Made by a program: the position numbers and the translations under genes
Origin: a virus
Direction: 5' to 3' (one strand)
DNA: 64,000 bases
IMG/VR virus record: IMGVR_UViG_3300033143_005193
Coordinates: 32,001 to 96,000 of that record
Part shown: positions 5,653 to 17,685 of the stretch, in pieces
Layout of the letters: each line of letters opens with the position of its first letter
Position numbering within the stretch: the stretch's first letter is position 1
The notes under the pieces: model-generated
Database searches by the model: none
Told to the model about the DNA's origin: nothing
What the model saw: only the letters and a program-made list of their open reading frames with translations

Positions 5653-7485
5653 ATGATTTTAAAAAATCATCCAGATGATGTAAAGGTTTTTGATGGAAGA
5701 TTTAATGGTATTTATAGGGGTGTTGTTGAAGACAACAATCCAGTTGATGAAAATGGAAATCCTTATAAAGATGGTAGAATAAGGGTAAGAATTTTTGGAT
5801 TACATACACCTAATAAAATTTCTTCCGAAACTGATGGAATACCAACAGAACATTTACCGTTAGCAGAACCTGTTTTTTCTCTTTTTGAGGGAAGTATAAG
5901 CGGACATGGGTGTTGGTCGGTGCCATTGAATGGATCTCATGTAATGTGTTTCTTTGAAAATGGTAATATAAATCAATTGAAATATTTTGGTACTGTTCCA
6001 GGAATTCCAACATCAACACCTGATAAAACTATTGGTTTTAATGATCCTGATGGTGTTTTTCCTGAATCTGATAGAATAAACGAACCCGATGTTAATAGGT
6101 TAGCAAGAGAAGAAGTTGTGGATACACAAATATCACACAGAACAGGATCATTGGTTAAAGGTGTATATCAATCAAATGCTGAAACATGGGATGAACCTTT
6201 TCCATCATATAATACTGAATATCCTCATAATATAGTTTTAAATACTCATGGTGGTATGTTAATAGAAATTGATTCAACACCAAATAATGAAAGGTATCAT
6301 ATCTTCCATCCATCCAATACTTTTATAGAAGTAGATCCAAGTGGTAATGTTATAATAAAAAATAAATCAAACAAATATGAAATTGTTTGTGGTGATAGAT
6401 ATTCACAGTTTTCTAAAAATAATAGTAAAACAATCAGTGGTAATGAAATGGTAAAAATTTTTGGTGAAAAAATAGATGAAATAGATACAGATTTAACAAT
6501 AACAATAGGTAATAGTAGAGATGAAAGTGTTGAATCGGATTATTTATTGAATATAGGTGGTTCATGTAATATAAATGTTGGAAGCAATTGTAAAATTTCT
6601 TCTGATTCAAGTGTAACTGTTGTTGCTCCTTCTGTTAATGTAAGTGGTCTTAATGGATGTACTATAGCTTCTGATACAAGTGTTACTATAAAAGCTCCTT
6701 CTGTTAATATAAATGAAGGTGGATCAGCTACAGTATCAACCGAAACAGTAATAACAAGAGAACCAGGTGGTTCCCCGGTTGAATGTATTAATAATGTTTA
6801 TACGGAAGTTGATTATGGAAATATTGATGATGAACCAGATGTTGATGATGGTTTAAATATCTATCCACCAACGAGTAATCCAACATCAGAAGATATTGCT
6901 AGATCTGAAAAATTAGATGTTTCACCAACAGAAACCAAGGGGGAAGATAGCGTAGAACCAACACAAGCGGAGACATTTCAAGCCGATTGTAGTGATATTG
7001 AGTCACCACCTAGTTCATCATTACAACTTTCGAGTAATTTTACTTTAGATCAATTGACTACAAACACATCTTTATCTAGTTATACATTAAAGAGTCAAGC
7101 TGGACTTGAGGATTATCAAATTGCTTGTAATTTAAGAGCTTTGTGTGAAAATGTATTAGAACCAATTGTTAGTGAATATGGAAAAAGTTCTTTTATTATA
7201 ACATCTGGATTTAGACATGGTTCTGGTAAATCACAACACGAAAAAGGACAAGCTGTTGATATTCAATTTCCATCAAAATCAAATGCTTTAGTTTATAATA
7301 TAGCTGTATGGATAAAGGATAATCTTAATTTTGATCAGTTAATACTTGAATATGGTGGTAATAAACCTTGGATTCATATATCATATAATCAAGATGGTAA
7401 TAGACCAGTATCACATGGAGCTAAATTCGGAACAAGAATTTCTGCTGGTAATTATGTATGGCGTGTATTGAAATATATGGAATAG
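5653..7485 (+). CDS. gp5-like baseplate spike with C-terminal peptidase M15 domain
   Basis: OB-fold GIYRGVVED..GRIRVRIFGLH; YPHNIV.T.GG..IEID.TP..ER..FHPS; beta-helix repeats; C-terminal ITSGFR..SQHEKGQAVD..WIHIS. Confidence 0.85.
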   Translation: MILKNHPDDVKVFDGRFNGIYRGVVEDNNPVDENGNPYKDGRIRVRIFGLHTPNKISSETDGIPTEHLPLAEPVFSLFEGSISGHGCWSVPLNGSHVMCFFENGNINQLKYFGTVPGIPTSTPDKTIGFNDPDGVFPESDRINEPDVNRLAREEVVDTQISHRTGSLVKGVYQSNAETWDEPFPSYNTEYPHNIVLNTHGGMLIEIDSTPNNERYHIFHPSNTFIEVDPSGNVIIKNKSNKYEIVCGDRYSQFSKNNSKTISGNEMVKIFGEKIDEIDTDLTITIGNSRDESVESDYLLNIGGSCNINVGSNCKISSDSSVTVVAPSVNVSGLNGCTIASDTSVTIKAPSVNINEGGSATVSTETVITREPGGSPVECINNVYTEVDYGNIDDEPDVDDGLNIYPPTSNPTSEDIARSEKLDVSPTETKGEDSVEPTQAETFQADCSDIESPPSSSLQLSSNFTLDQLTTNTSLSSYTLKSQAGLEDYQIACNLRALCENVLEPIVSEYGKSSFIITSGFRHGSGKSQHEKGQAVDIQFPSKSNALVYNIAVWIKDNLNFDQLILEYGGNKPWIHISYNQDGNRPVSHGAKFGTRISAGNYVWRVLKYME

Positions 7486-8197: not shown

Positions 8198-8575
8198 ATG
8201 GCAACGAATATATATTCTGACATAGATATTGAATTAACTAGAGATTCTACTGGTGATATAAAAAAAGACACAGATAAAGATGCTATCCTTAATAGTATAT
8301 CAAATATCATGGAAACAATGAGAGGCAGTAGAAGAATGCTTCCTGAATTTGCTGATAACCCAACAACACTACTTTTTGAACCAATAGACGAGAGAACAGC
8401 AGCGAAAATAGGAGAAATTTTAATAGATTCAATAGAAATTTGGGATGATAGAATAAACATAAATGGATTGAAAATACAACCAGTTCCTGATAAAAATATG
8501 TATGTTTGTAGATTATCAATGACAGTTAAGTCAAGTAATAAAACAGAAACAATTGATTTCATTTTAAGGAGTTAA
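8198..8575 (+). CDS. baseplate wedge subunit gp25
   Basis: YSDID..GDI..D.DAI.NSI.NI..T.RG.R.M.PEF...LLFEP. Confidence 0.9.
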   Translation: MATNIYSDIDIELTRDSTGDIKKDTDKDAILNSISNIMETMRGSRRMLPEFADNPTTLLFEPIDERTAAKIGEILIDSIEIWDDRININGLKIQPVPDKNMYVCRLSMTVKSSNKTETIDFILRS

Positions 8576-8576
8576 A

Positions 8577-10256
8577 ATGGCAAATATATTAAAACCAGAA
8601 TATGTTTCTTTAGATTATAATACTATAATAAGTAACATAAAAACCGAACTTTCGAAAAGTGATATTTTTCGTGATTATGATTATGAAGGATCTAATATAG
8701 CCGTATTAATAGAGTTGATGGCTTATATAGGTGAATTAAATACTTATTTTCTTAATAAAATTGCTAAAAATGCATATATTGATACAGCTGATCAGTATGA
8801 AAACGTTCATAGATTAGCTACTTTTATAGGATATGATCCTAAAGGATATATTTCAGCACAAACAACACTTTCAATAACAGTATCAGCAGCTACTTGTGAT
8901 CCCGGTGATCATTTGATCATAAGTGGTTGGCATCAAATATCAACTGATGAAACTGATAGTGATGGTAATGTTATAAAATATGCAACAACCGCTCCTCATG
9001 TAGAACAAATACCATTAAGCGCAACTTTTCCATATACTTTTGGTGTTAATGTAAGACAAGGTATTATAAAAACATATAATTATACAGGTAGAGATATTAT
9101 AAATAATGAGATAATTTTACCTTTAAACGTAAATTACGCTTATGATAATGTTTTGGAAGATGAAAATGAATCGATTCTTTTAATAGTTGATGGTACTCCG
9201 TGGTCAAGAGTATCGGATTTTTATGATGAAATATCTGGTTTGTATAATGAATCAAATGTTTATAAATTTGAGTTTGATAAGTATCAGAGATATAAAATAG
9301 TTTTCAATACTTCCAGAAGTGTTCCAACAGAAAATCAAGAAATAGAAATAAAGTTACTGGAAACATTAGCTGAAGAAGGCAGTGTTGGTATAGGGAAGAT
9401 AATATCACCTGATAATAATTTTATTTATAACAATATGAAAGATAGATATCTTTTAAATAGTGAATTTAGTGTTACAAATTTATCAGAAACAACATCTTCA
9501 GCTGAAAAAGAAAATATATTGACAATTAAATCCAATGCTAAAAGTGCTTTACATACACAATTTAGAAATGTTACATCATCTGATTATATTTCTTATTTAG
9601 AGGCTCGTTCTGATGTTAATGTTGCAAATGTTTGGGGTGAAAAAGAAATAGCACCATCCGGTGATATAAGTGAATATAATAAAGTTCATATTTGTGTAAT
9701 TCCAAATGAATGGGGATCGGGAACTATTGAAACGACAACAACAAGTGCTGGTTATAATGTTCCAACAGCGTATTCTTCTACATATGTGAATAATTTAAAA
9801 GATTATTTAGAGCCAAGAAAAATGTTATCAACATACGAGCAATTTGAATTACCTGATTTGGTATATTTTGTTTTTGATATAGGTATCAGAATAAGTAGAT
9901 CATATTCATTTGCTGATGTTGTTAGTGATGTAAGAAACAAATTAGAGTTTTATTTTACAAACGGTGAAAGAGAATTTAATGAAACATTAAGTTTCATGAA
10001 TATTGAAGAATTTTTGTTAGATTCCACAAATGTTTCTGATGATGATAATTTTGAAAATATTGCTGGTATAAGAAATTTAGTTATTAGAGATATTGATATA
10101 TTAACTCATAATATTTATGATTATAATTCATCATTATTTCCTAGATATTTGGTTGATGTATATACTGGTGATAATAATTTAAGAGAAATAAAATTAGGAT
10201 ATAACCAATATCCAATAATTTTAATAGATGGTTGTACGTTTACACAGGAGACATAA
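8577..10256 (+). CDS. baseplate wedge subunit gp6
   Basis: LDY..I..L..F.DYDYEGSN..LIE..AY..YF.N..YIDTA; QFRNVT..DY; VWGE. Confidence 0.9.
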   Translation: MANILKPEYVSLDYNTIISNIKTELSKSDIFRDYDYEGSNIAVLIELMAYIGELNTYFLNKIAKNAYIDTADQYENVHRLATFIGYDPKGYISAQTTLSITVSAATCDPGDHLIISGWHQISTDETDSDGNVIKYATTAPHVEQIPLSATFPYTFGVNVRQGIIKTYNYTGRDIINNEIILPLNVNYAYDNVLEDENESILLIVDGTPWSRVSDFYDEISGLYNESNVYKFEFDKYQRYKIVFNTSRSVPTENQEIEIKLLETLAEEGSVGIGKIISPDNNFIYNNMKDRYLLNSEFSVTNLSETTSSAEKENILTIKSNAKSALHTQFRNVTSSDYISYLEARSDVNVANVWGEKEIAPSGDISEYNKVHICVIPNEWGSGTIETTTTSAGYNVPTAYSSTYVNNLKDYLEPRKMLSTYEQFELPDLVYFVFDIGIRISRSYSFADVVSDVRNKLEFYFTNGEREFNETLSFMNIEEFLLDSTNVSDDDNFENIAGIRNLVIRDIDILTHNIYDYNSSLFPRYLVDVYTGDNNLREIKLGYNQYPIILIDGCTFTQET

Positions 10257-10261
10257 TTATA

Positions 10262-13018
10262 ATGCCTAAATTTTCAGATTCTTCTTTTAATATACTAAAC
10301 ACATATTTCGGTGAAGCTAATTATAAAACAAATAGTTCCACAAAAAGCGGATCTTTGGTTGGTGGAAACACTGGTATAGTAGCGAGTGGTGGTTATTGGT
10401 TTGTTTTTTATATATTACATGATAACGAATTCAAAAAAATTCGTTTTAGAATGGATAATGATAATTATGTTTCTGGTAATGGATTTATCTTTACAAAACA
10501 CCCAGAAGATGAAGATTTTGAAAGTGGATCTGAAGTATATTTCAAGATAGGTGATTATTTTTATAATTGGTTAATAAAAAACGAAACATTATATAAAAAC
10601 TATATAAATACAAGATTTCCATTCCTGTATTTTGGTAATATTTATCCAAATGTTAGTGGTGGATATATTATAAATTTTTATGGAATGAAAGATTATGTAA
10701 TGGATGCTCTTCCAGAACATAATAGAACACCAAATTTGTCTGAATTTTTTAAATTGTATTTTGATATGATTTATCAAAAAATATATAATTCGGCTAAAAA
10801 TGTAAAAACTCTCTTAGATCCAAGTGAAGTTGATATAAACTATATAGGTTATATAGCAGATATGTATAATGTATCAATAAGAGATAGTTTAAATGAAATC
10901 GAAAAGAGAGAATTTGTTAAAAATGTTATATATTTATTAAAAAGAGTTGGAACATATTCATCTATCTATATTGTTTGGAAATTAATTTCCAGAGATCCAT
11001 ATAATAATATAAATGTGTATGAAAGATGGCATGAAGAAAAAAATCCAACAGCACCTGTTTTACCATATTTTAGAGACTATCTTTATACAACATTTTATGA
11101 TCCATTCTTATATAAAAGAGGATGTGCTGGTGATAGTTTTTATAATAATAGTAATGGTTTTGATTATACTAGTAATATAGCAGTTAGATCTGGTGTTTAT
11201 TTTCATAATGAGGAAACTATAAAATCTGATATATGGGATGTTGATAATATTTTTAGTAACAAACAAATTTTGGTTCAGTGTTTTAATATTATAGAAGCCA
11301 TAAATCCACAAAATATAGAATTAACTGATGATAAAGTTTATATAGAATATAATGGAAGCGAAGAATGTTATGTAATTTTAACTGAATCTGATTATACACA
11401 TACTCAATCAATTAATAGTTCTACATGGAATATAAATCATGGATTAAATAGCAAAGAAGTTATATTAAATGTTTATGATTCTAATAACAAATTTATTTTT
11501 TCATATGAAGCTGAATTAATCGATGAAAATAATTGTAATGTATATTTTGGAGATGATAATATATCTGGTTATGTTAATGTATTAAAACCAGATTATATAT
11601 ATGAGCAATTGTATGGTACCGAATGTTGGAATATAAATCATGGATTAGGATATGATATTTCATTTATACAATGTTATGACTTAAATTATAAAAAAATACA
11701 TCCATCGAGTATAATTTCAATAGATAGTAATAATATAGAAATTTCGTTTAATGAAATAACAAGTGGTTATGCTTTTATATATTCTGCTGCTGAAATTTCA
11801 TATTATCCAAAAATGCCTGATGATGGTTATTTATCACCACATTATAGAGTTGAAGTAGATTTAAATTGTTCACCACTTGGAAATGATTATATAATAGATA
11901 AAGAAACAATAAATGGATTATATGAATATTGGGAAATAACAAGACCTGTTAGTAAGGTTTCACATTACAATTTACTTTTAGCACCAAAAACCAATTTTAA
12001 AAAGAATTTTACATCAAATTATAATTATTATTCTATAGAAAATAGAGGAAAAATAGAAACAAAATGTTGTAAAGATGTGTTTAGTTTCTCTGAAGATATT
12101 GATGTTTATACACAAAGAACAAGATCAAATAGATGGGTTTTTCTTCATAGATTAAATACTAAAGATGTAATTGTTCAATGTTATGATTGGGATAAAAATC
12201 AAATTTTACCTGAAGATATATATCTGGTATCAAATAGTGTTATTATAGTAACATTTTCATCTTCTCAAAATGGTTATATGATTGTTAAAAAAGTTGATTA
12301 TGATCATGATCAAACTATTCTTGCATCAACATGGAATATAAATCATTCATTAAACCATAGAAAAAATATTTCTCAAGTTTATGATGAAAATGATTATAGA
12401 GAACTTCCTTTAGAAATTAATTTATTAGATGATAATAATGAAACAATAACATTTTCAGAAAACACAAGTGGTAGTGCTGAAATATTAAAAGCTGATTATG
12501 TATATACAGGTAATAATTCAAAAACATGGAATATATTTCATGAACTAGAATCAGAGCTTATTTTAGTTCAATGCTACGATTTAGATCATAATATGATATT
12601 ACCTGATAATATATACTTGAAAAGTGAAAATAATTGTATAATAACATTTAAAAATAATGTTTCTGGATATGCTTTAATAGATAGAGTTGGTGATGCTTCA
12701 ACACAAAGTGATTTAATGTCAACCATTGTAAGCGGTGGTTATATAAAGATAGGAACAGGAAAAACTGGAAGGTATTTTAATACAGAAAAACATAATGATT
12801 TAGAAAATCCAGTATATACTATAACAGATATAGAAGTGGATTATGATGAAAACAATTATTATATAGAAGGTGAAACTGTTGGATATAAAGCCGAAGCTGA
12901 TATAACTGAATTTGGTGTTTTTAACTATGAAAATGATTTAATATGGTACACATATTGTGATACAGTATATAAAATAGAAGATTTTGATATAAAATTATAC
13001 TATAGGATAGCGAGGTAA
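10262..13018 (+). CDS. large baseplate wedge protein (gp7-like) with six ~60-aa repeats
   Basis: Follows gp6; tail-P2-I-like LLDP..YIGYIA..KR.F.KN...L.KR.GT region; repeats of W(N)I.H.L....VQCYD. Confidence 0.6.
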   Translation: MPKFSDSSFNILNTYFGEANYKTNSSTKSGSLVGGNTGIVASGGYWFVFYILHDNEFKKIRFRMDNDNYVSGNGFIFTKHPEDEDFESGSEVYFKIGDYFYNWLIKNETLYKNYINTRFPFLYFGNIYPNVSGGYIINFYGMKDYVMDALPEHNRTPNLSEFFKLYFDMIYQKIYNSAKNVKTLLDPSEVDINYIGYIADMYNVSIRDSLNEIEKREFVKNVIYLLKRVGTYSSIYIVWKLISRDPYNNINVYERWHEEKNPTAPVLPYFRDYLYTTFYDPFLYKRGCAGDSFYNNSNGFDYTSNIAVRSGVYFHNEETIKSDIWDVDNIFSNKQILVQCFNIIEAINPQNIELTDDKVYIEYNGSEECYVILTESDYTHTQSINSSTWNINHGLNSKEVILNVYDSNNKFIFSYEAELIDENNCNVYFGDDNISGYVNVLKPDYIYEQLYGTECWNINHGLGYDISFIQCYDLNYKKIHPSSIISIDSNNIEISFNEITSGYAFIYSAAEISYYPKMPDDGYLSPHYRVEVDLNCSPLGNDYIIDKETINGLYEYWEITRPVSKVSHYNLLLAPKTNFKKNFTSNYNYYSIENRGKIETKCCKDVFSFSEDIDVYTQRTRSNRWVFLHRLNTKDVIVQCYDWDKNQILPEDIYLVSNSVIIVTFSSSQNGYMIVKKVDYDHDQTILASTWNINHSLNHRKNISQVYDENDYRELPLEINLLDDNNETITFSENTSGSAEILKADYVYTGNNSKTWNIFHELESELILVQCYDLDHNMILPDNIYLKSENNCIITFKNNVSGYALIDRVGDASTQSDLMSTIVSGGYIKIGTGKTGRYFNTEKHNDLENPVYTITDIEVDYDENNYYIEGETVGYKAEADITEFGVFNYENDLIWYTYCDTVYKIEDFDIKLYYRIAR

Positions 13019-13022
13019 TGAA

Positions 13023-13547
13023 ATGAGGGTTAAATATTGGAGTTATTTATTAAATGACGAAGGACAACCAATAGAAAATGCTAATGTTTATATATATGAA
13101 GCAGGAACATTAAATAGTGCTAGTGTTTTTACTACTGAAATTGGTGGAACAGCTGTATCGTCAGCACCACAAGTAATAACGGATTCTGATGGATATTTTG
13201 AATTTTGGATAGCTGATAATAATGAAACTGATGGATATAGTAGATCACAAAAATTTAGAATTAAATGGTTTAAAGCTAATGTTGCTGAAGGTGATATAGA
13301 TAATGTTTCTATTTTACCAATGGGTCCTGGATATTATTATGATACCACAGATAGTTGGACGCTTGGGGCATCTGGATATTATTATGATGTAAATCATGGT
13401 TTAGGTGTAAATTTTCCTGTTGTTCAATTTTATGATACTACAGAAAGAAAAAAAAGAGATTTAACAACATATTCAATATCTGAAAACGTTTTAAGAGTAT
13501 GGAATGATACTGATTCAGAAAATTTTGAAATAGTTGTAATAGGATAA
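13023..13547 (+). CDS. putative tail/baseplate structural protein
   Basis: GQPIENANVYIYEAGT..TDSDGYFEFW (tailspike head-binding-like) plus one NHGLG..VVQFYD repeat unit. Confidence 0.6.
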   Translation: MRVKYWSYLLNDEGQPIENANVYIYEAGTLNSASVFTTEIGGTAVSSAPQVITDSDGYFEFWIADNNETDGYSRSQKFRIKWFKANVAEGDIDNVSILPMGPGYYYDTTDSWTLGASGYYYDVNHGLGVNFPVVQFYDTTERKKRDLTTYSISENVLRVWNDTDSENFEIVVIG

Positions 13548-13562
13548 AAGGAGAAAAATATA

Positions 13563-15488
13563 ATGAAATCACATGGTTTAACAATGTATGGTGATTTTAA
13601 TACCAATAATATTAAAGCACAAGATGGTACAACTTTTGCTACTTTATCTGATACAACTGGTGAGATGGAAACATCTGCGAGTTTGAAGATAGGTTCTGAT
13701 TTTAAAACTGATAATATTAAATCAAAAGATGGTGTAGATGCTATAGAAATAGCTAATATTACTGGTAATACATCAATAAAAAATAATTTAATAATTAATG
13801 GTGATTTAAATACAAATGATATAAAATCATATATTGGTACTAGCGCAATAACAATAGATAATTCTGGTAACATACAAATAATAAAAGATTTATGGACGGA
13901 TGATATAAAATCATATACAGGTACTAGTGCAATAACAATAGGTAATACAAGTGGAAATGTTACTATAAACAATCAATTAAGGACTTCAATTATCGGTTCA
14001 AAAGATGGTGTTACATCTATAACAATATCAGATTCAACTGGAGATGCTACAATAAATAATGATTTAATAATTGATGGTGATTTAAAAACTAATAATATTA
14101 AATCAATTGCTGATAATAATGCTTTGTTAATTAATGACGATGGATGTGTAACAGTTTCAAATCAATTAAGAACATCTAATGTAAAATCTGAAGTTGGATC
14201 TTCAGCTATTTCTATTAACAGCTCTGGTAAAGTAACAGTATCACAGTTTCAGTTTATTGGATCATCGCCTGGTGATGGAAAAGTTATTGTGTCAGATAAC
14301 AGTGGTAATTTTTCATGGGGTTCTGGTTCTATTCCATCTGGTGAAATTATTCTTTTTGAAAAAAATACTGCTGTTTTTGGATATACATTAAAAACAGATT
14401 TGGATGATATGTTGGTATATATTACAAAAGGATCGGCTGCTGGTGGTGAAACCGGTGGTTCTTTAAAATCTGGTGGTACTTGGACACAACCAAGCCATGC
14501 TCATACTGGTCCAAGCCATAGACATACAGGACCAAGCCATAGACATACTGGGCCAAGCCATACACATACGGTTTCAGGTCATACACATACAGGACCAAGC
14601 CATACACATACGATTTCAGATCATAGACACACAGGCCCAAACCATACACATACAATTTCAAATCATAGGCATACCGGTCCAAGCCATACACATACGATAC
14701 CAAGCCATGCTCATACCGGTCCAAGTCATACACATACGATACCAAGCCATGCTCATACTGGTCCAAGTCATACACATACGATTTCAGATCATAGACACAC
14801 AGGCCCAAATCATACACATACGATACCAAGCCATGCCCACACAACAGGTGATTGTACTCTAACAATAGATCAAATGCCGAGGCATAGACATTTTATTGCT
14901 AGTTATGCTAGTTATGAGGGTATGGGACATAATTTAGCTAAAGATGCTGGTGGTTATGGTGGTGGTTTATATACTCAATATACAGGTGGTGATCCATCAA
15001 CATATGAAACACAACCACATAATCACGGTAGTACTGGACTTGGAGGGTCAGGTAATACCGGAACATCAGGAACAGGATATACTGGATATAGTGGTGTTGG
15101 TAATACTGGAGCGTCGGGAACTGGTAATACTGGGCTTGGTGGTGGTGGTAATACTGGAACATCAGGAACAGGTCTAACAGGAGAAAGTGGTGCTGGTAAT
15201 ACCGGAGCATCAGGAAACGGATATACTGGATATAGTGGAGCCGGTAATACCGGGACATCAGGAGACGGATATACCGGATATAGTGGAGCGGGTAATACCG
15301 GAGCATCAGGAACTGGTTTAACAGGAGAAAGTGGTGCTGGTAATACAGGAGCATCAGGAAACGGATATACTGGATATAGTGGAACAGATTTAACAGGATA
15401 TAGTGGAACTGGTTTGACTGGAACATCAGCCACGGTAAATACTTGGCGACCAAAAGGTAGAAATTTTACAAGACAACAAAAATTATAA
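13563..15488 (+). CDS. tail fibre with long HxH metal-binding needle
   Basis: Seven N-terminal ~30-aa repeats (T..IKS..G..AI.I), IPSG collar-like motif, 17 HxH heptads, TLTIDQMP.H.H tip, 17 xTGxxGxG octads, terminal WRP. Confidence 0.8.
   Translation: MKSHGLTMYGDFNTNNIKAQDGTTFATLSDTTGEMETSASLKIGSDFKTDNIKSKDGVDAIEIANITGNTSIKNNLIINGDLNTNDIKSYIGTSAITIDNSGNIQIIKDLWTDDIKSYTGTSAITIGNTSGNVTINNQLRTSIIGSKDGVTSITISDSTGDATINNDLIIDGDLKTNNIKSIADNNALLINDDGCVTVSNQLRTSNVKSEVGSSAISINSSGKVTVSQFQFIGSSPGDGKVIVSDNSGNFSWGSGSIPSGEIILFEKNTAVFGYTLKTDLDDMLVYITKGSAAGGETGGSLKSGGTWTQPSHAHTGPSHRHTGPSHRHTGPSHTHTVSGHTHTGPSHTHTISDHRHTGPNHTHTISNHRHTGPSHTHTIPSHAHTGPSHTHTIPSHAHTGPSHTHTISDHRHTGPNHTHTIPSHAHTTGDCTLTIDQMPRHRHFIASYASYEGMGHNLAKDAGGYGGGLYTQYTGGDPSTYETQPHNHGSTGLGGSGNTGTSGTGYTGYSGVGNTGASGTGNTGLGGGGNTGTSGTGLTGESGAGNTGASGNGYTGYSGAGNTGTSGDGYTGYSGAGNTGASGTGLTGESGAGNTGASGNGYTGYSGTDLTGYSGTGLTGTSATVNTWRPKGRNFTRQQKL
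14490..14846 (+). repeat. 17 x 21-nt coding tandem repeat (PSHxHTG/I)
   Basis: Counted directly from the translation. Confidence 0.9.
15030..15437 (+). repeat. 17 x 24-nt coding tandem repeat (xTGxSGxG)
   Basis: Counted directly from the translation. Confidence 0.9.
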
Positions 15489-15497
15489 AATAGGAGA

Positions 15498-15848
15498 ATG
15501 ATTAATATGTTAAATAAGAAAAAAGATGAAAACAAAGGATTATGTCCATTTAATAATCTTAAACCATGTAATGAAAAGTGTGCTTTTTTTAGATCTGGAG
15601 TGAGATATACTGAAATAAATGGTGAACCATTTCCATTTAAAGAATGTGCTATAAATATCATAGCTGATAATTTGGAATCAATGCATAATAGAACTTATAT
15701 GATGCAAAAAGAAGTTGGTGAAACTAAAAATACAATAGCAATGAAAATTCTTTCGGATCTTGGTGTTGGATCTATTGAAGAAACAACAAGATTGGCTGTA
15801 AGGGTTTTGGGTCTTGATAAAAAAGAAGAAACAAAAAAATTAGAATAG
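15498..15848 (+). CDS. Cys-rich hypothetical protein, possible fibre chaperone
   Basis: CPF-x5-C-x3-C..C then a helical region; AGGAG SD; directly after the fibre gene. Confidence 0.6.
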   Translation: MINMLNKKKDENKGLCPFNNLKPCNEKCAFFRSGVRYTEINGEPFPFKECAINIIADNLESMHNRTYMMQKEVGETKNTIAMKILSDLGVGSIEETTRLAVRVLGLDKKEETKKLE

Positions 15849-15911: not shown

Positions 15912-16331
15912 ATGGGTGAAGATTATGTAAATAACGAAGAATTATTAGAAGAAATTAAAAAATTCAAGAAAACTAATAAGTATTCAGAAAGATTAGGTGA
16001 AATGATTCTTTTAATAGCTACCAATTATTCTAACCTCGGTAGTTTCAATGGCTATACCTGGAAAGATGATATGATAGGTGAAGCTGTTTTAACTTGTTTG
16101 AAATATCTTCATAATTTTAATCCTGATAAACAGATAAAACCAAATCCATTTGCTTATATAGGAACAATCGTTCATAGATCTTTTGTAAACTTTATAAAAA
16201 AACAAAAAAAACATAGATATATAAAGGATTATTGTTATAAAAATCTATCTTTATTGGATGGTAATGAATATTATTTTATGAAATCAATAAATTATGAATC
16301 AATGAAACCTGTTAGTGGGAGGAAAAAATGA
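15912..16331 (+). CDS. late-transcription sigma factor gp55
   Basis: YVNN.EL..LG.MILLIA..S...F.GYTWKDDMI.EA...C.KY..NF.P....NPFAY..I..SF...IKKQKK. Confidence 0.92.
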   Translation: MGEDYVNNEELLEEIKKFKKTNKYSERLGEMILLIATNYSNLGSFNGYTWKDDMIGEAVLTCLKYLHNFNPDKQIKPNPFAYIGTIVHRSFVNFIKKQKKHRYIKDYCYKNLSLLDGNEYYFMKSINYESMKPVSGRKK

Positions 16332-16689: not shown

Positions 16690-17685
16690 GTGAAATTTTT
16701 ACTTGTTTCAGATACACATTTAGGATTATATAATGATTCCGATATATGGTTAGATGTAACTACTAATCTTTTTAACGAAATAATAGATACTTGTGTAAAA
16801 GAAAATATAAATAAAATAATACATTTGGGTGATTTTTTTCATAATCACAAAGCCATAAACACAAAAACATTAGATGTTTCAAAGAAAATTGCTGAAAATT
16901 TAGAAGAAGAAAAAATAACAACGTACATGATAGTAGGTAATCATGATTGTTATTACAGAAATACAATAAAACCAAACACTCTAAGCGTATTTAAAAAACA
17001 CAAATATATCAAGATTATAGAAGAACCATATATTTTGGAAAATATTCTTCTCCTTCCTTGGGGTTTCTATCCAGAACAAGAATCAAAATACTGTATGGGA
17101 CATTTTGAAATATCTGGATTTCTTATGAATGATAATTTTACCTGTAAAACAGGTTTAAGTTATAAATCATTTGAGAAATTCGATAGGGTATTTTCTGGTC
17201 ATTTCCATAAATCATCAACAAATTATAATATAACATATCTTGGTAATCCATTTCAACAAGATTTTCATGATTCCGAACATATTAAAGGATATTATATATT
17301 TGACAACGAAAGCGGTGAATTAAGATTTATAGAATTTACAGATTATCCAAAATTTGTTACTATAAGAATAGAGAATTATAAAGATACTGATGTTACTGGA
17401 AATATTATAAAAATTCTTTTCGAAAAAGATTATGGTACAAATAAAAATAATAAACTTATTGATGAATTATATAAATTAAATCCTTTAAAGATAAAAAGCA
17501 CTAGAATATTGAATAGTGAAGATGAAGAATCTCTTGAAAGAGAAGAAAATGAAGAAGAAATTGTTCTTGATAATAAAAAATTGATGTTAGAATATATTGA
17601 AAAATATGAGAAAATACCGAAAAATATTAAAAAAGTTGTATTGAAAAATATGTTTAATACAATAGTTAATAATTTAGAGGAATAA
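16690..17685 (+). CDS. recombination endonuclease subunit gp47 (Mre11/SbcD-like)
   Basis: SDTHLG, LGDFF, GNHD, GHFE, SGHFH metallophosphoesterase motifs. Confidence 0.92.
   Translation: MKFLLVSDTHLGLYNDSDIWLDVTTNLFNEIIDTCVKENINKIIHLGDFFHNHKAINTKTLDVSKKIAENLEEEKITTYMIVGNHDCYYRNTIKPNTLSVFKKHKYIKIIEEPYILENILLLPWGFYPEQESKYCMGHFEISGFLMNDNFTCKTGLSYKSFEKFDRVFSGHFHKSSTNYNITYLGNPFQQDFHDSEHIKGYYIFDNESGELRFIEFTDYPKFVTIRIENYKDTDVTGNIIKILFEKDYGTNKNNKLIDELYKLNPLKIKSTRILNSEDEESLEREENEEEIVLDNKKLMLEYIEKYEKIPKNIKKVVLKNMFNTIVNNLEE

What the first reader, a model, noticed from the sequence alone, without database searches (positions are those of the whole stretch)
14490..15437. Tail-fibre needle with an exact 17:17 mirror code between outgoing HxH heptads and returning Gly/Thr octads
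Seen: 17 heptads, then a tip (TLTIDQMPRHRH...QPHNH), then 17 octads. Pairing heptad n with octad 18-n gives strong covariation. All five HRH heptads (2,3,7,9,15) face all five TGYSG octads (16,15,11,9,3). All seven HTHT(I/V) heptads face the seven NTG(A/T)SG octads. Both TGLGG octads face HAH heptads (17,13). Established: in the T4 gp37 tip each chain runs out and back and HxH motifs from three chains bind metal ions. Inference: a very long trimeric hairpin needle with ~17-19 metal sites and Arg-Tyr register keys, whose two arrays of different period (21 and 24 nt) must expand in concert. It would be a length-tunable molecular ruler and possibly a substantial metal carrier.
Basis: partly seen in the sequence, partly recalled or inferred. 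Interest (0 to 1): 0.8.

Follow-up and report, generated by a model that had tools for sequence, protein, structure and literature searches.

The report
Matched-repeat histidine needle on phage fibre
The tail-fibre gene of an uncultured T4-like phage ends in a very long, probably metal-stapled needle whose outgoing arm (17 seven-residue His-x-His units) and returning arm (17 eight-residue glycine-rich units) are matched one-to-one, and about 50 relatives with 1 to 17 units obey the same matching rule.

Summary
ORF 13563-15488 (+, 641 aa) holds 17 His-x-His heptads (14490-14846), a 61-aa tip, 17 xTGxSGxG octads (15030-15437) and a 16-aa closing segment.

Relatives support the core of the interpretation. 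In 51 homologues with the same tip motifs, outgoing and returning arm lengths correlate (r = 0.96, slope 1.08 residues per residue; 8/7 = 1.14). Most unit counts agree within half a unit, from 1:1 up to 17:17. A full-length orthologue has about 4:5 units.

Counting both arms from the base, HRH heptads in 15 other proteins face a Tyr-bearing octad (usually YT[G/D]Y) 11 of 17 times, against 9% for other heptads (OR 19). Parallel registers are much weaker and shifted ones near background.

A family profile matches two solved phage tail-fibre structures, one of them described by its authors as T4 gp37-like at the tip. The closest known structure is the T4 gp37 collar-needle-head tip.

Not shown here: the trimer, the metal and the actual contacts. 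Within this protein alone, a parallel register fits about as well as the mirror one. The "ruler" and "metal carrier" ideas remain speculation.

Verdict: a new, strictly periodic variant of a known fibre-tip kind. An earlier scan note on other DNA concerns a one-way His-x-His array, not this two-arm form.

The parts
13563..15488 (+). Tail-fibre gene (641 aa, P0001). It is the last gene of the baseplate block, in the place of the P2 gpH fibre, after gp25-like, gp6-like and a gpI-like 928-aa protein.
   Evidence: ORF list; neighbours by PHROGs and Pfam; a syntenic orthologue in L002 carries a Pfam Collar domain.
13563..14324 (+). N-terminal attachment motif (MKSHGLTMYG) and a shaft of about seven 28-35-aa repeats (NIKS..G.SAI.I.N.SGN..).
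   Evidence: Direct reading. It is 58% identical to orthologue P0003 and 73% to the L002 orthologue. The MK.HG..M.G start recurs in many family members.
14325..14489 (+). Base of the needle (aa 255-309): a reduced collar-like domain ending in GGTWTQ.
   Evidence: AlphaFold2 pLDDT 87-95. hhalign against canonical collar domains gives probability 84% over 27 columns. It is conserved in 110 relatives. Pfam Collar itself is not hit.
14490..14846 (+). Outgoing arm: 17 heptads (P/S)xHxHT(G/I/V). x = R at units 2, 3, 7, 9, 15; x = A at units 1, 11, 13, 17; x = T elsewhere.
14847..15029 (+). Tip or head (61 aa). It holds the collar-type motif TLT..QMP.H.H, then Tyr/Gly-rich variable loops, then QPHNHG. 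It carries two further HxH motifs and is the likely receptor-binding end.
   Evidence: The motifs are conserved and the loops hypervariable in alignment A2. The profile aligns this part to solved fibre tips 9qgo and 9nxk.
15030..15437 (+). Returning arm: 17 His-free octads xTGxSGxG. (Y/L)TGYSG at units 3, 9, 11, 15, 16.
   Evidence: Period 8 scores far better than periods 6, 7 or 9 here and in relatives.
15438..15485 (+). Closing segment NTWRPKGRNFTRQQKL, which packs back on the base.
   Evidence: AlphaFold2 predicts a strand with pLDDT about 95 at the last residues in two models. The WRP anchor is near-invariant.

Best explanation
The C-terminal 387 residues form the receptor-binding end of a tail fibre of an uncultured, very AT-rich T4-like phage. 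They are built on the plan of the T4 gp37 tip.

Proposed path of the chain: it leaves a small collar-like base and runs out as 17 His-x-His heptads. It forms a 61-residue head. It comes back as 17 glycine/threonine-rich octads. It closes on the base with its last 16 residues.

Inferred by analogy with gp37:
- Three chains would assemble. The six histidines at each level would point to the axis and hold a metal ion (17 sites, plus 2 in the tip).
- The middle residue x of HxH would point outwards and touch the returning arm. This would explain why HRH faces YTGY and why the small x = Thr faces small A/T octads.

My own inference: the return arm needs 8 residues per level against 7 because it lies outside the core, on a longer path.

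Because both arms must span the same distance, needle length can change only by matched gain or loss of heptads and octads. That is the pattern seen across the family, from 1:1 to 17:17.

Shown here: the repeat anatomy, the 1:1 rule, the antiparallel register, and sequence homology of the tip to solved fibre tips. Inferred: return of the chain to the base (from AlphaFold2 confidence only), the trimer, the metal, the side-chain contacts and the role as receptor binder.
For: - Anatomy.
- 1:1 rule: 52 relatives give octads against heptads with slope 0.995 +/- 0.055, intercept -0.05, r = 0.93. The refined parse of 51 gives r = 0.957 and a Theil-Sen slope of 1.08 (1.00-1.13) residues per residue. 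In 143 family members, tip plus return length against heptad-array length has slope 1.10 +/- 0.075.
- Orthologue P0003 has the same N-terminus, base, tip and C-terminus, but 4 heptads and a 39-aa return arm.
- Register: with P0001 left out, HRH faces a Tyr octad 11/17 times against 48/549 for other heptads (OR 19, p = 5e-8). Shifts -3 to -1 and +2, +3 are at background, and parallel registers are much weaker (best OR 5, p = 0.005, at offset 0). A within-protein shuffle expects 4.4 against 11 observed (p = 1.8e-4) across 15 mostly unrelated proteins.
- Closure: AlphaFold2 monomer models of P0001 and P0142 have pLDDT above 87 only for the base and the last 5-8 residues.
- Kinship: the A2 profile hits solved tail fibres 9qgo_A (E = 2e-5) and 9nxk_A (E = 4e-5) through the tip motifs. 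The authors of 9nxk say its tip resembles the gp37 tip (bioRxiv 10.1101/2025.06.11.659172). In a fold search, 12 of the 13 chains with Z >= 2 are gp37, gp12, gp10, gp11 or other fibre proteins. Relatives carry Pfam Collar or Gp10_C.
- In T4 gp37 each iron is held by HxH histidines of the three chains, and a Gly of the neighbouring strand must be small to fit against them (PMC6957217).
- Fibre role: the gene's place after the baseplate genes, C-terminal module swapping in a syntenic relative, and hypervariable tip loops.
Against: - No structure of the needle was obtained. Both monomer models have pLDDT 40-60 along the repeats.
- The fold matches are weak (Z <= 4.6).
- Pfam and PHROGs do not recognise P0001 itself. 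Only the first 27 columns of the base align to canonical collars.
- Unlike gp37, which has HxH on both arms, here all array histidines sit on the outgoing arm.
- Within P0001 a parallel register offset by 2 gives the same mutual information.
- HxH heptad arrays of 16-41 units exist with no return arm, so a partner arm is not a general requirement.
- The homologues are not phylogenetically independent, and a few have counts that differ by about one unit.
Confidence: 0.78

Rival explanations
1. The hairpin topology is right, but Arg and Tyr co-occur at the same level for function, not for register. Together they would form repeated surface patches along the needle that bind the host's polysaccharide (LPS, capsule). 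The 'code' would then be a set of lateral binding sites rather than a folding key.
For: Arg and Tyr are typical carbohydrate-binding residues (general knowledge). The R-Y levels are irregularly placed (2, 3, 7, 9, 15). Most relatives have plain HTH facing GTGATG with no R-Y at all, so R-Y is not needed for folding. In T4 gp37, residues lining the tip surface are critical for function (PMC6957217).
Against: No binding data exist. Co-occurrence is equally expected from a packing contact. It cannot be separated from the best explanation with sequence alone.
Confidence: 0.3
2. The two arrays fold independently and in series. A one-way HxH triple stalk is followed by a distal head and then a separate glycine-rich fibre segment. 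Equal counts here would be coincidence or shared recombination history.
For: The needle was not modelled. The parallel -2 register scores as well within P0001.
Against: The 1:1 rule holds over 51 relatives. The mirror-specific R-Y signal is anchored at the base. The C-terminal strand is modelled with confidence only together with the base. The conserved WRP closing motif corresponds to the closing strand of collar domains.
Confidence: 0.06
3. The histidine ladder is structural without metal (stacked, hydrogen-bonded His), or it binds a metal only loosely. The needle would then be a hairpin but not a metal-stapled one.
For: No metal evidence was obtained here. The heptad spacing is tighter than the 9-32-residue spacing of HxH motifs in gp37.
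Against: Iron held by HxH histidines is reported for gp37 (PMC6957217) and for the P2 spike apex (abstract of bioRxiv 10.1101/2023.02.25.529910). The first five His of the array are invariant across 58 aligned proteins.
Confidence: 0.15

Closest known systems
T4 gp37 long-tail-fibre receptor-binding tip (collar-needle-head, PDB 2XGF)
   Same: - A collar-type base closed by the C-terminal strand.
- The chain runs out and back. This is established knowledge of the 2XGF structure, recalled rather than read here; the paper was not held.
- HxH motifs hold metal on the trimer axis, and the partner strand is rich in small residues (Gly must fit against His; PMC6957217).
- A Tyr/Gly-rich head at the distal end.
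- In the fold search, 2xgf aligns over residues 811-1025, though weakly (Z = 3.6).
   Different: - gp37 has 7 HxH at irregular spacing on both arms (883, 915, 929 out; 966, 980, 989, 998 back).
- The window protein has 17 strictly periodic HxH on the outgoing arm only, and a His-free period-8 return arm.
- Its base is a reduced collar that Pfam does not recognise.
Solved short fibres with gp37-like tips: Pseudomonas phage Pa223 gp60 (9nxk) and tail fibre 9qgo
   Same: The profile-level sequence match covers the tip motifs LT..Q.P.H.H and GG..HNH, and for 9qgo also the base (E = 2e-5 to 4e-5). 9nxk is the best fold hit (Z = 4.6).
   Different: In the aligned stretches shown, neither has a heptad array before the LT..Q.P.H.H motif or an octad array after HNH. 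In the terms used here they are the n = 0 form.
Pfam Collar (PF07484) and Gp10_C (PF21939) proteins, T4 gp12 and gp10
   Same: Several family members carry these domains. The syntenic orthologue in L002 has a canonical Collar (E = 6e-21). The tip motifs TLT..QMP.H.H and QPHN, and the closing N.(W/Q)(R/Q)P strand, are collar-family motifs.
   Different: In P0001 the collar motifs are split. The heptads lie between the base and the LT..QMP.H.H motif, and the octads lie between HNHG and the closing strand. P0001 itself scores below every Pfam threshold.
One-way HxH heptad stalks in Prophage_tail-type fibre proteins (16-41 units)
   Same: The same 7-residue HxH period, and the proteins were found as sequence hits. 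Earlier scan note e1-3497296 describes one with 32 units.
   Different: The heptad is xxHTHxL, with a hydrophobic residue where P0001 has Gly/Pro. There is no glycine-rich return arm, and a globular C-terminal domain of about 100 aa follows.

Membership tests
T4 gp37-type collar-needle-head fibre tip | The chain runs out to a distal head and back, and the C-terminal strand closes the base domain. | tested here: met
   Indirect but consistent. Arm lengths are matched 1:1 in 51 relatives. The base-anchored antiparallel R-Y register is seen in other proteins. AlphaFold2 is confident only for the base plus the last strand.
T4 gp37-type collar-needle-head fibre tip | HxH motifs on the trimer axis hold metal ions. 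| not testable with these tools
   19 HxH motifs are present and the first array histidines are invariant in 58 sequences.
T4 gp37-type collar-needle-head fibre tip | HxH motifs are distributed on both the outgoing and the returning strand. | tested here: not met
   gp37 has 3 out and 4 back. In P0001 the return arm has no His. A subgroup of relatives does carry one HxH on the return arm.
T4 gp37-type collar-needle-head fibre tip | Fold similarity to 2XGF. | tested here: inconclusive
   The VIA-align wide search on the model of homologue P0142 gives 2xgf_A at Z = 3.6 and 9nxk at Z = 4.6. Twelve of the 13 chains with Z >= 2 are fibre or collar proteins, but the model has mean pLDDT 57.
Pfam Collar (PF07484) | A match to the family profile above the gathering score. 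| tested here: not met
   No Collar hit for P0001 even at E <= 1. hhalign of the family base against canonical collars gives probability 84% over the first 27 columns only. Relatives and the L002 orthologue do match.
Pfam Gp10_C (PF21939) | A match to the family profile. | tested here: not met
   No hit for P0001. Some relatives match, for example P0047 at E = 3e-24. The ESM Atlas neighbours of P0142 are Gp10_C and Collar clusters, which is a lead only.
Phage tail fibre / receptor-binding protein | Encoded in the baseplate or fibre block, with a variable distal module. | tested here: met
   The gene follows gp5-, gp25-, gp6- and gpI-like genes. The syntenic relative L002 keeps the N-terminal 250 aa (73% identity) but has a different C-terminal module. 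The tip loops are hypervariable.

The most novel reading that the evidence does not exclude
The family embodies a simple, evolvable building rule for trimeric beta-needles. One level of the needle equals one HxH heptad (core, metal site) plus one Gly-rich octad (outer strand). Length is set by adding or removing matched pairs, from 1 to at least 17 levels. Level-specific pairs such as HRH/YTGY lock the register or make lateral binding patches. This 7:8 rule has not been described in the papers searched. It would make needle length a directly testable and designable variable of phage host recognition.
Probability: 0.5. Interest if true: 0.75.

Novelty: new variant of a known kind. Interest (0 to 1): 0.64.

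Why it matters
Phage fibre tips decide host range, and the gp37-type needle is one of the few that are understood structurally.

Here the same plan appears in a strictly modular form. Length varies 17-fold among relatives, while the two arms stay matched unit for unit. A recurrent Arg/Tyr pairing marks the register.

- For evolution, it is a natural series for asking how repeat proteins with two interdependent arrays change length.
- For phage biology, it allows a test of what needle length does for adsorption, for example reach through capsule or O-antigen.
- For design, it is a candidate scaffold for stiff rods of set length.
- For marine iron, if each level binds iron as in T4, one fibre would hold about 19 ions against 7 in T4. 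This bears on the discussion of phage-bound iron in the sea (Ferrojan horse hypothesis, as cited in PMC11705849). Neither the metal nor the habitat was established here.

Tried and rejected
No trimer or contact test was possible.
So there was no context for P0003 and no look at repeat-number variants in reads.
- AlphaFold2 monomer runs on P0001 aa 255-641 and on the 4:4 homologue P0142 left the needle at pLDDT 40-60.
- Sequence search of the PDB with the single protein gave only RNA polymerase II CTD heptads, which are spurious low-complexity matches.
- tblastn against 50,697 cultured phage genomes gave the following. The whole protein found only an 8% match in Synechococcus phage S-TIP37. The base alone and homologue P0142 found nothing. 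BLAST's low-complexity filter is on, so absence is weak evidence.
- Pfam and PHROGs gave nothing for P0001.
- A Mantel test of nucleotide similarity between the arrays is not specific. Mirror gives r = 0.40, but parallel -2 gives 0.58, driven by the period-2 alternation. I rejected it as evidence.
- Other heptad/octad residue associations (for example Pro1 or Gly7 with Ala in the octad) persist at shifted registers. They reflect protein-wide composition rather than position, so I rejected them as a 'code'.
- The search for related loci with alignment A1 failed because no stretch was conserved enough.
- The Bartual 2010 paper on 2XGF is not held. Statements about its six-stranded out-and-back needle rest on my own knowledge plus PMC6957217.
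- A full-text search for the heptad motif found no paper.
Full report
**What is there.** The window is bases 32001-96000 of a 110,776-bp IMG/VR virus record, estimated 46% complete.
- The region is very AT-rich: 21-32% GC in the flanks, rising to 43-44% inside the repeat region.
- ORF 13563-15488 (+) encodes 641 aa.
- It follows a baseplate block: gp5-like 5653-7485, gp25-like 8198-8575, gp6-like 8577-10256, and a 928-aa protein with a weak P2 gpI match.
- It precedes gp55-like (15912-16331) and gp47-like (16690-17685) genes. The gp47-like protein is about 30% identical to those of cyanomyophages.
- The gene therefore sits where a P2-type tail fibre gene would.

**Check of the observation.**
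- The layout is 17 heptads (aa 310-428), a 61-aa tip, 17 octads (aa 490-625) and a 16-aa tail.
- With heptad n paired to octad 18-n, all five HRH heptads face all five TGYSG octads.
- The seven HTHT(I/V) heptads face the seven NTG(A/T)SG octads.
- Both TGLGG octads face HAH heptads, but the other two HAH heptads face other octads.
- Even with the alternating octads held fixed, the five R-Y coincidences have p = 0.004. No other of 26 registers gives more than three.
- Two cautions apply. A parallel register offset by two gives the same mutual information. A similarity-matrix (Mantel) test does not single out the mirror register. This protein alone does not settle the register.

**Evidence from relatives.** A word-indexed search gave 215 hits and an exhaustive HMMER search gave 859.
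- The family shares a base ending in GTWTQP, HxH heptads, a variable tip, a period-8 Gly-rich stretch and a closing N-x-W-R-P segment.
- In 143 members, the length of tip plus return arm rises by 1.10 +/- 0.075 residues per residue of heptad array (r = 0.78).
- In the 51-52 members that share the tip motifs of the window protein, the arms can be delimited exactly.
  - Octad count against heptad count has slope 0.995 +/- 0.055, intercept -0.05, r = 0.93.
  - After correcting the parse for members with an extra HxH on the return arm, r = 0.957 and the Theil-Sen slope is 1.08 (1.00-1.13) residues per residue, against 8/7 = 1.14 expected.
  - Counts run 1:1, 2:2, 3:3, 4:4, 5:5, 7:7, 9:9, 16:16 and 17:17.
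  - A few are off by about one unit. In one of the larger misfits examined (P0007) the base was mis-delimited, and a hand count gives about 9:9.
- P0003 is a full-length orthologue: 58% identical over the first 354 aa, with the same N-terminus, base, tip type and C-terminus. It has 4 heptads and a 39-aa return arm. The 191-aa difference in length splits into 91 aa of heptads and 97 aa of octads.

**Register.** I counted heptads from the base and octads back from the closing W-R-P anchor, leaving the window protein out.
- HRH heptads face a Tyr-containing octad in 11 of 17 cases, against 48 of 549 for other heptads (OR 19, p = 5e-8).
- Shifts -3 to -1 and +2, +3 are at background. Shift +1 is intermediate, as expected from small indels.
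- Parallel registers are much weaker, with the best at OR 5.
- Shuffling octads within each of the 15 proteins expects 4.4 matches against 11 observed (p = 1.8e-4). Only one pair of these proteins is more than 60% identical.
- The motif opposite HRH is usually YT(G/D)Y.
- Other residue associations persist at shifted registers and reflect composition only.

**Topology and kinship.**
- AlphaFold2 monomer models of the window module and of the 4:4 homologue P0142 are confident (pLDDT 87-95) only for the base and for the last 5-8 residues, which form a strand. The repeats stay at 40-60. This fits a C-terminus that returns to the base and a needle that needs the trimer.
- A profile of alignment A2 hits two solved tail fibres. 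9qgo_A matches at E = 2e-5, from the base through the tip. 9nxk_A (Pa223 gp60) matches at E = 4e-5 in the tip motifs.
- The authors of the Pa223 structure say that its tip closely resembles the gp37 tip (bioRxiv 10.1101/2025.06.11.659172).
- A Foldseek-independent fold search found only 13 chains with Z >= 2. Twelve of them are phage fibre or collar proteins: 9nxk, 8on5, 8kec, 2xgf, gp12, gp11, gp10 and the collar-domain protein 6ov6. All are at Z <= 4.6, so this is weak.
- The first 27 columns of the base align to canonical collar domains (hhalign probability 84%).
- Some relatives carry Pfam Collar or Gp10_C. The window protein itself matches neither Pfam nor PHROGs.
- T4 gp37, read from the T4 genome, has HxH at 883, 915 and 929 on the way out and at 966, 980, 989 and 998 on the way back.
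- In gp37 each iron is held by histidines of the three chains, and a glycine of the neighbouring strand must stay small to fit against them (PMC6957217).

**Reading.** The module is a gp37-type collar-needle-head tip in a strictly modular form.
- The collar-family motifs are all present but pulled apart. The heptads lie between the base and LT..QMP.H.H. The octads lie between HNHG and the closing strand.
- Solved short fibres look like the n = 0 state, and family members fill in n = 1 to 17.
- I infer that the HxH strands form the metal-binding core of a trimer. The x residue would point outward onto the return arm, which explains the R/Y and T/small pairings.
- I also infer that the outer arm needs one more residue per level because its path is longer.
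- Matched length is then a folding requirement, and needle length can evolve only by paired changes.
- The synonymous differences among identical heptads and octads suggest arrays that are maintained rather than newly expanded.

**Limits.**
Coupling is therefore a property of this family, not of HxH heptads in general.
- The Arg/Tyr levels could be lateral binding patches rather than register keys.
- 'Ruler' and 'metal carrier' remain speculation.

**Novelty.** The architecture class is known (gp37 tip; the RBPseg class with a gp10_C-like domain plus a T4-like needle, PMC12143355). HxH motifs in marine phage fibres have been discussed (PMC11705849). I found no paper with the heptad motif or the 7:8 rule. 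No cultured phage in the collection carries the module. I rate it a new variant of a known kind, with interest 0.64.

Noticed in passing
L002:1356-2684 (IMGVR_UViG_3300028601_000257), with L002:2711-3484: In a syntenic relative, the orthologous fibre (442 aa) keeps the N-terminal 250 aa (73% identity). It ends in a canonical Pfam Collar domain with irregular HxH on both arms, like gp37. An extra 257-aa ORF of no known family sits between the fibre and gp55 and may be a chaperone. This is a clear case of C-terminal module swapping.
   Followed up: partly
Proteins P0067, P0036, P0031, P0108, P0121: These fibre proteins of about 900-1060 aa carry 16-41 HxH heptads of the form xxHTHxL, and two of them carry a Prophage_tail N-terminal domain. 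They have no glycine-rich return arm and end in a globular domain of about 100 aa. They are one-way histidine stalks. Earlier scan note e1-3497296 describes one with 32 units.
   Followed up: partly
Proteins P0016, P0032, P0039, P0042 and others: A subgroup of about 650-aa relatives has two HxH on the outgoing arm, 10 residues apart, and one HxH (G-G-H-D-H-G) on the return arm. This is intermediate between the gp37 layout and the all-outgoing layout of the window protein.
   Followed up: partly
window 13563-13600 and the family alignment A2: Many family members start with the same short motif, M-(K/D)-x-H-G-x-x-M-x-G, whatever follows. It may be the peptide that plugs the fibre into the baseplate.
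   Followed up: no
window 10232-13018 and 13023-13547: The 928-aa upstream protein holds about five repeats of a roughly 90-aa domain marked by W-N-I-x-H-x-L (five stretches on phrog_21918) and has a weak P2 gpI match. The 174-aa protein after it seems to end in one more copy of that domain.
   Followed up: no
window 15498-15848: A 116-aa ORF lies just downstream of the fibre. It has four Cys in its first 30 residues and matches no Pfam or PHROG family. It is absent from the syntenic relative L002 and may be a fibre-specific assembly factor.
   Followed up: no
window 14422-15661, minus strand and other frames: Several long ORFs overlap the repeats in other frames (147-212 aa). They are by-products of the periodic sequence, not genes.
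   Followed up: partly
Protein P0053: One family member lies on a 255-kb contig that NCBI labels as a Candidatus Thorarchaeota MAG. It may be a binned phage contig or a virus of that host.
   Followed up: no
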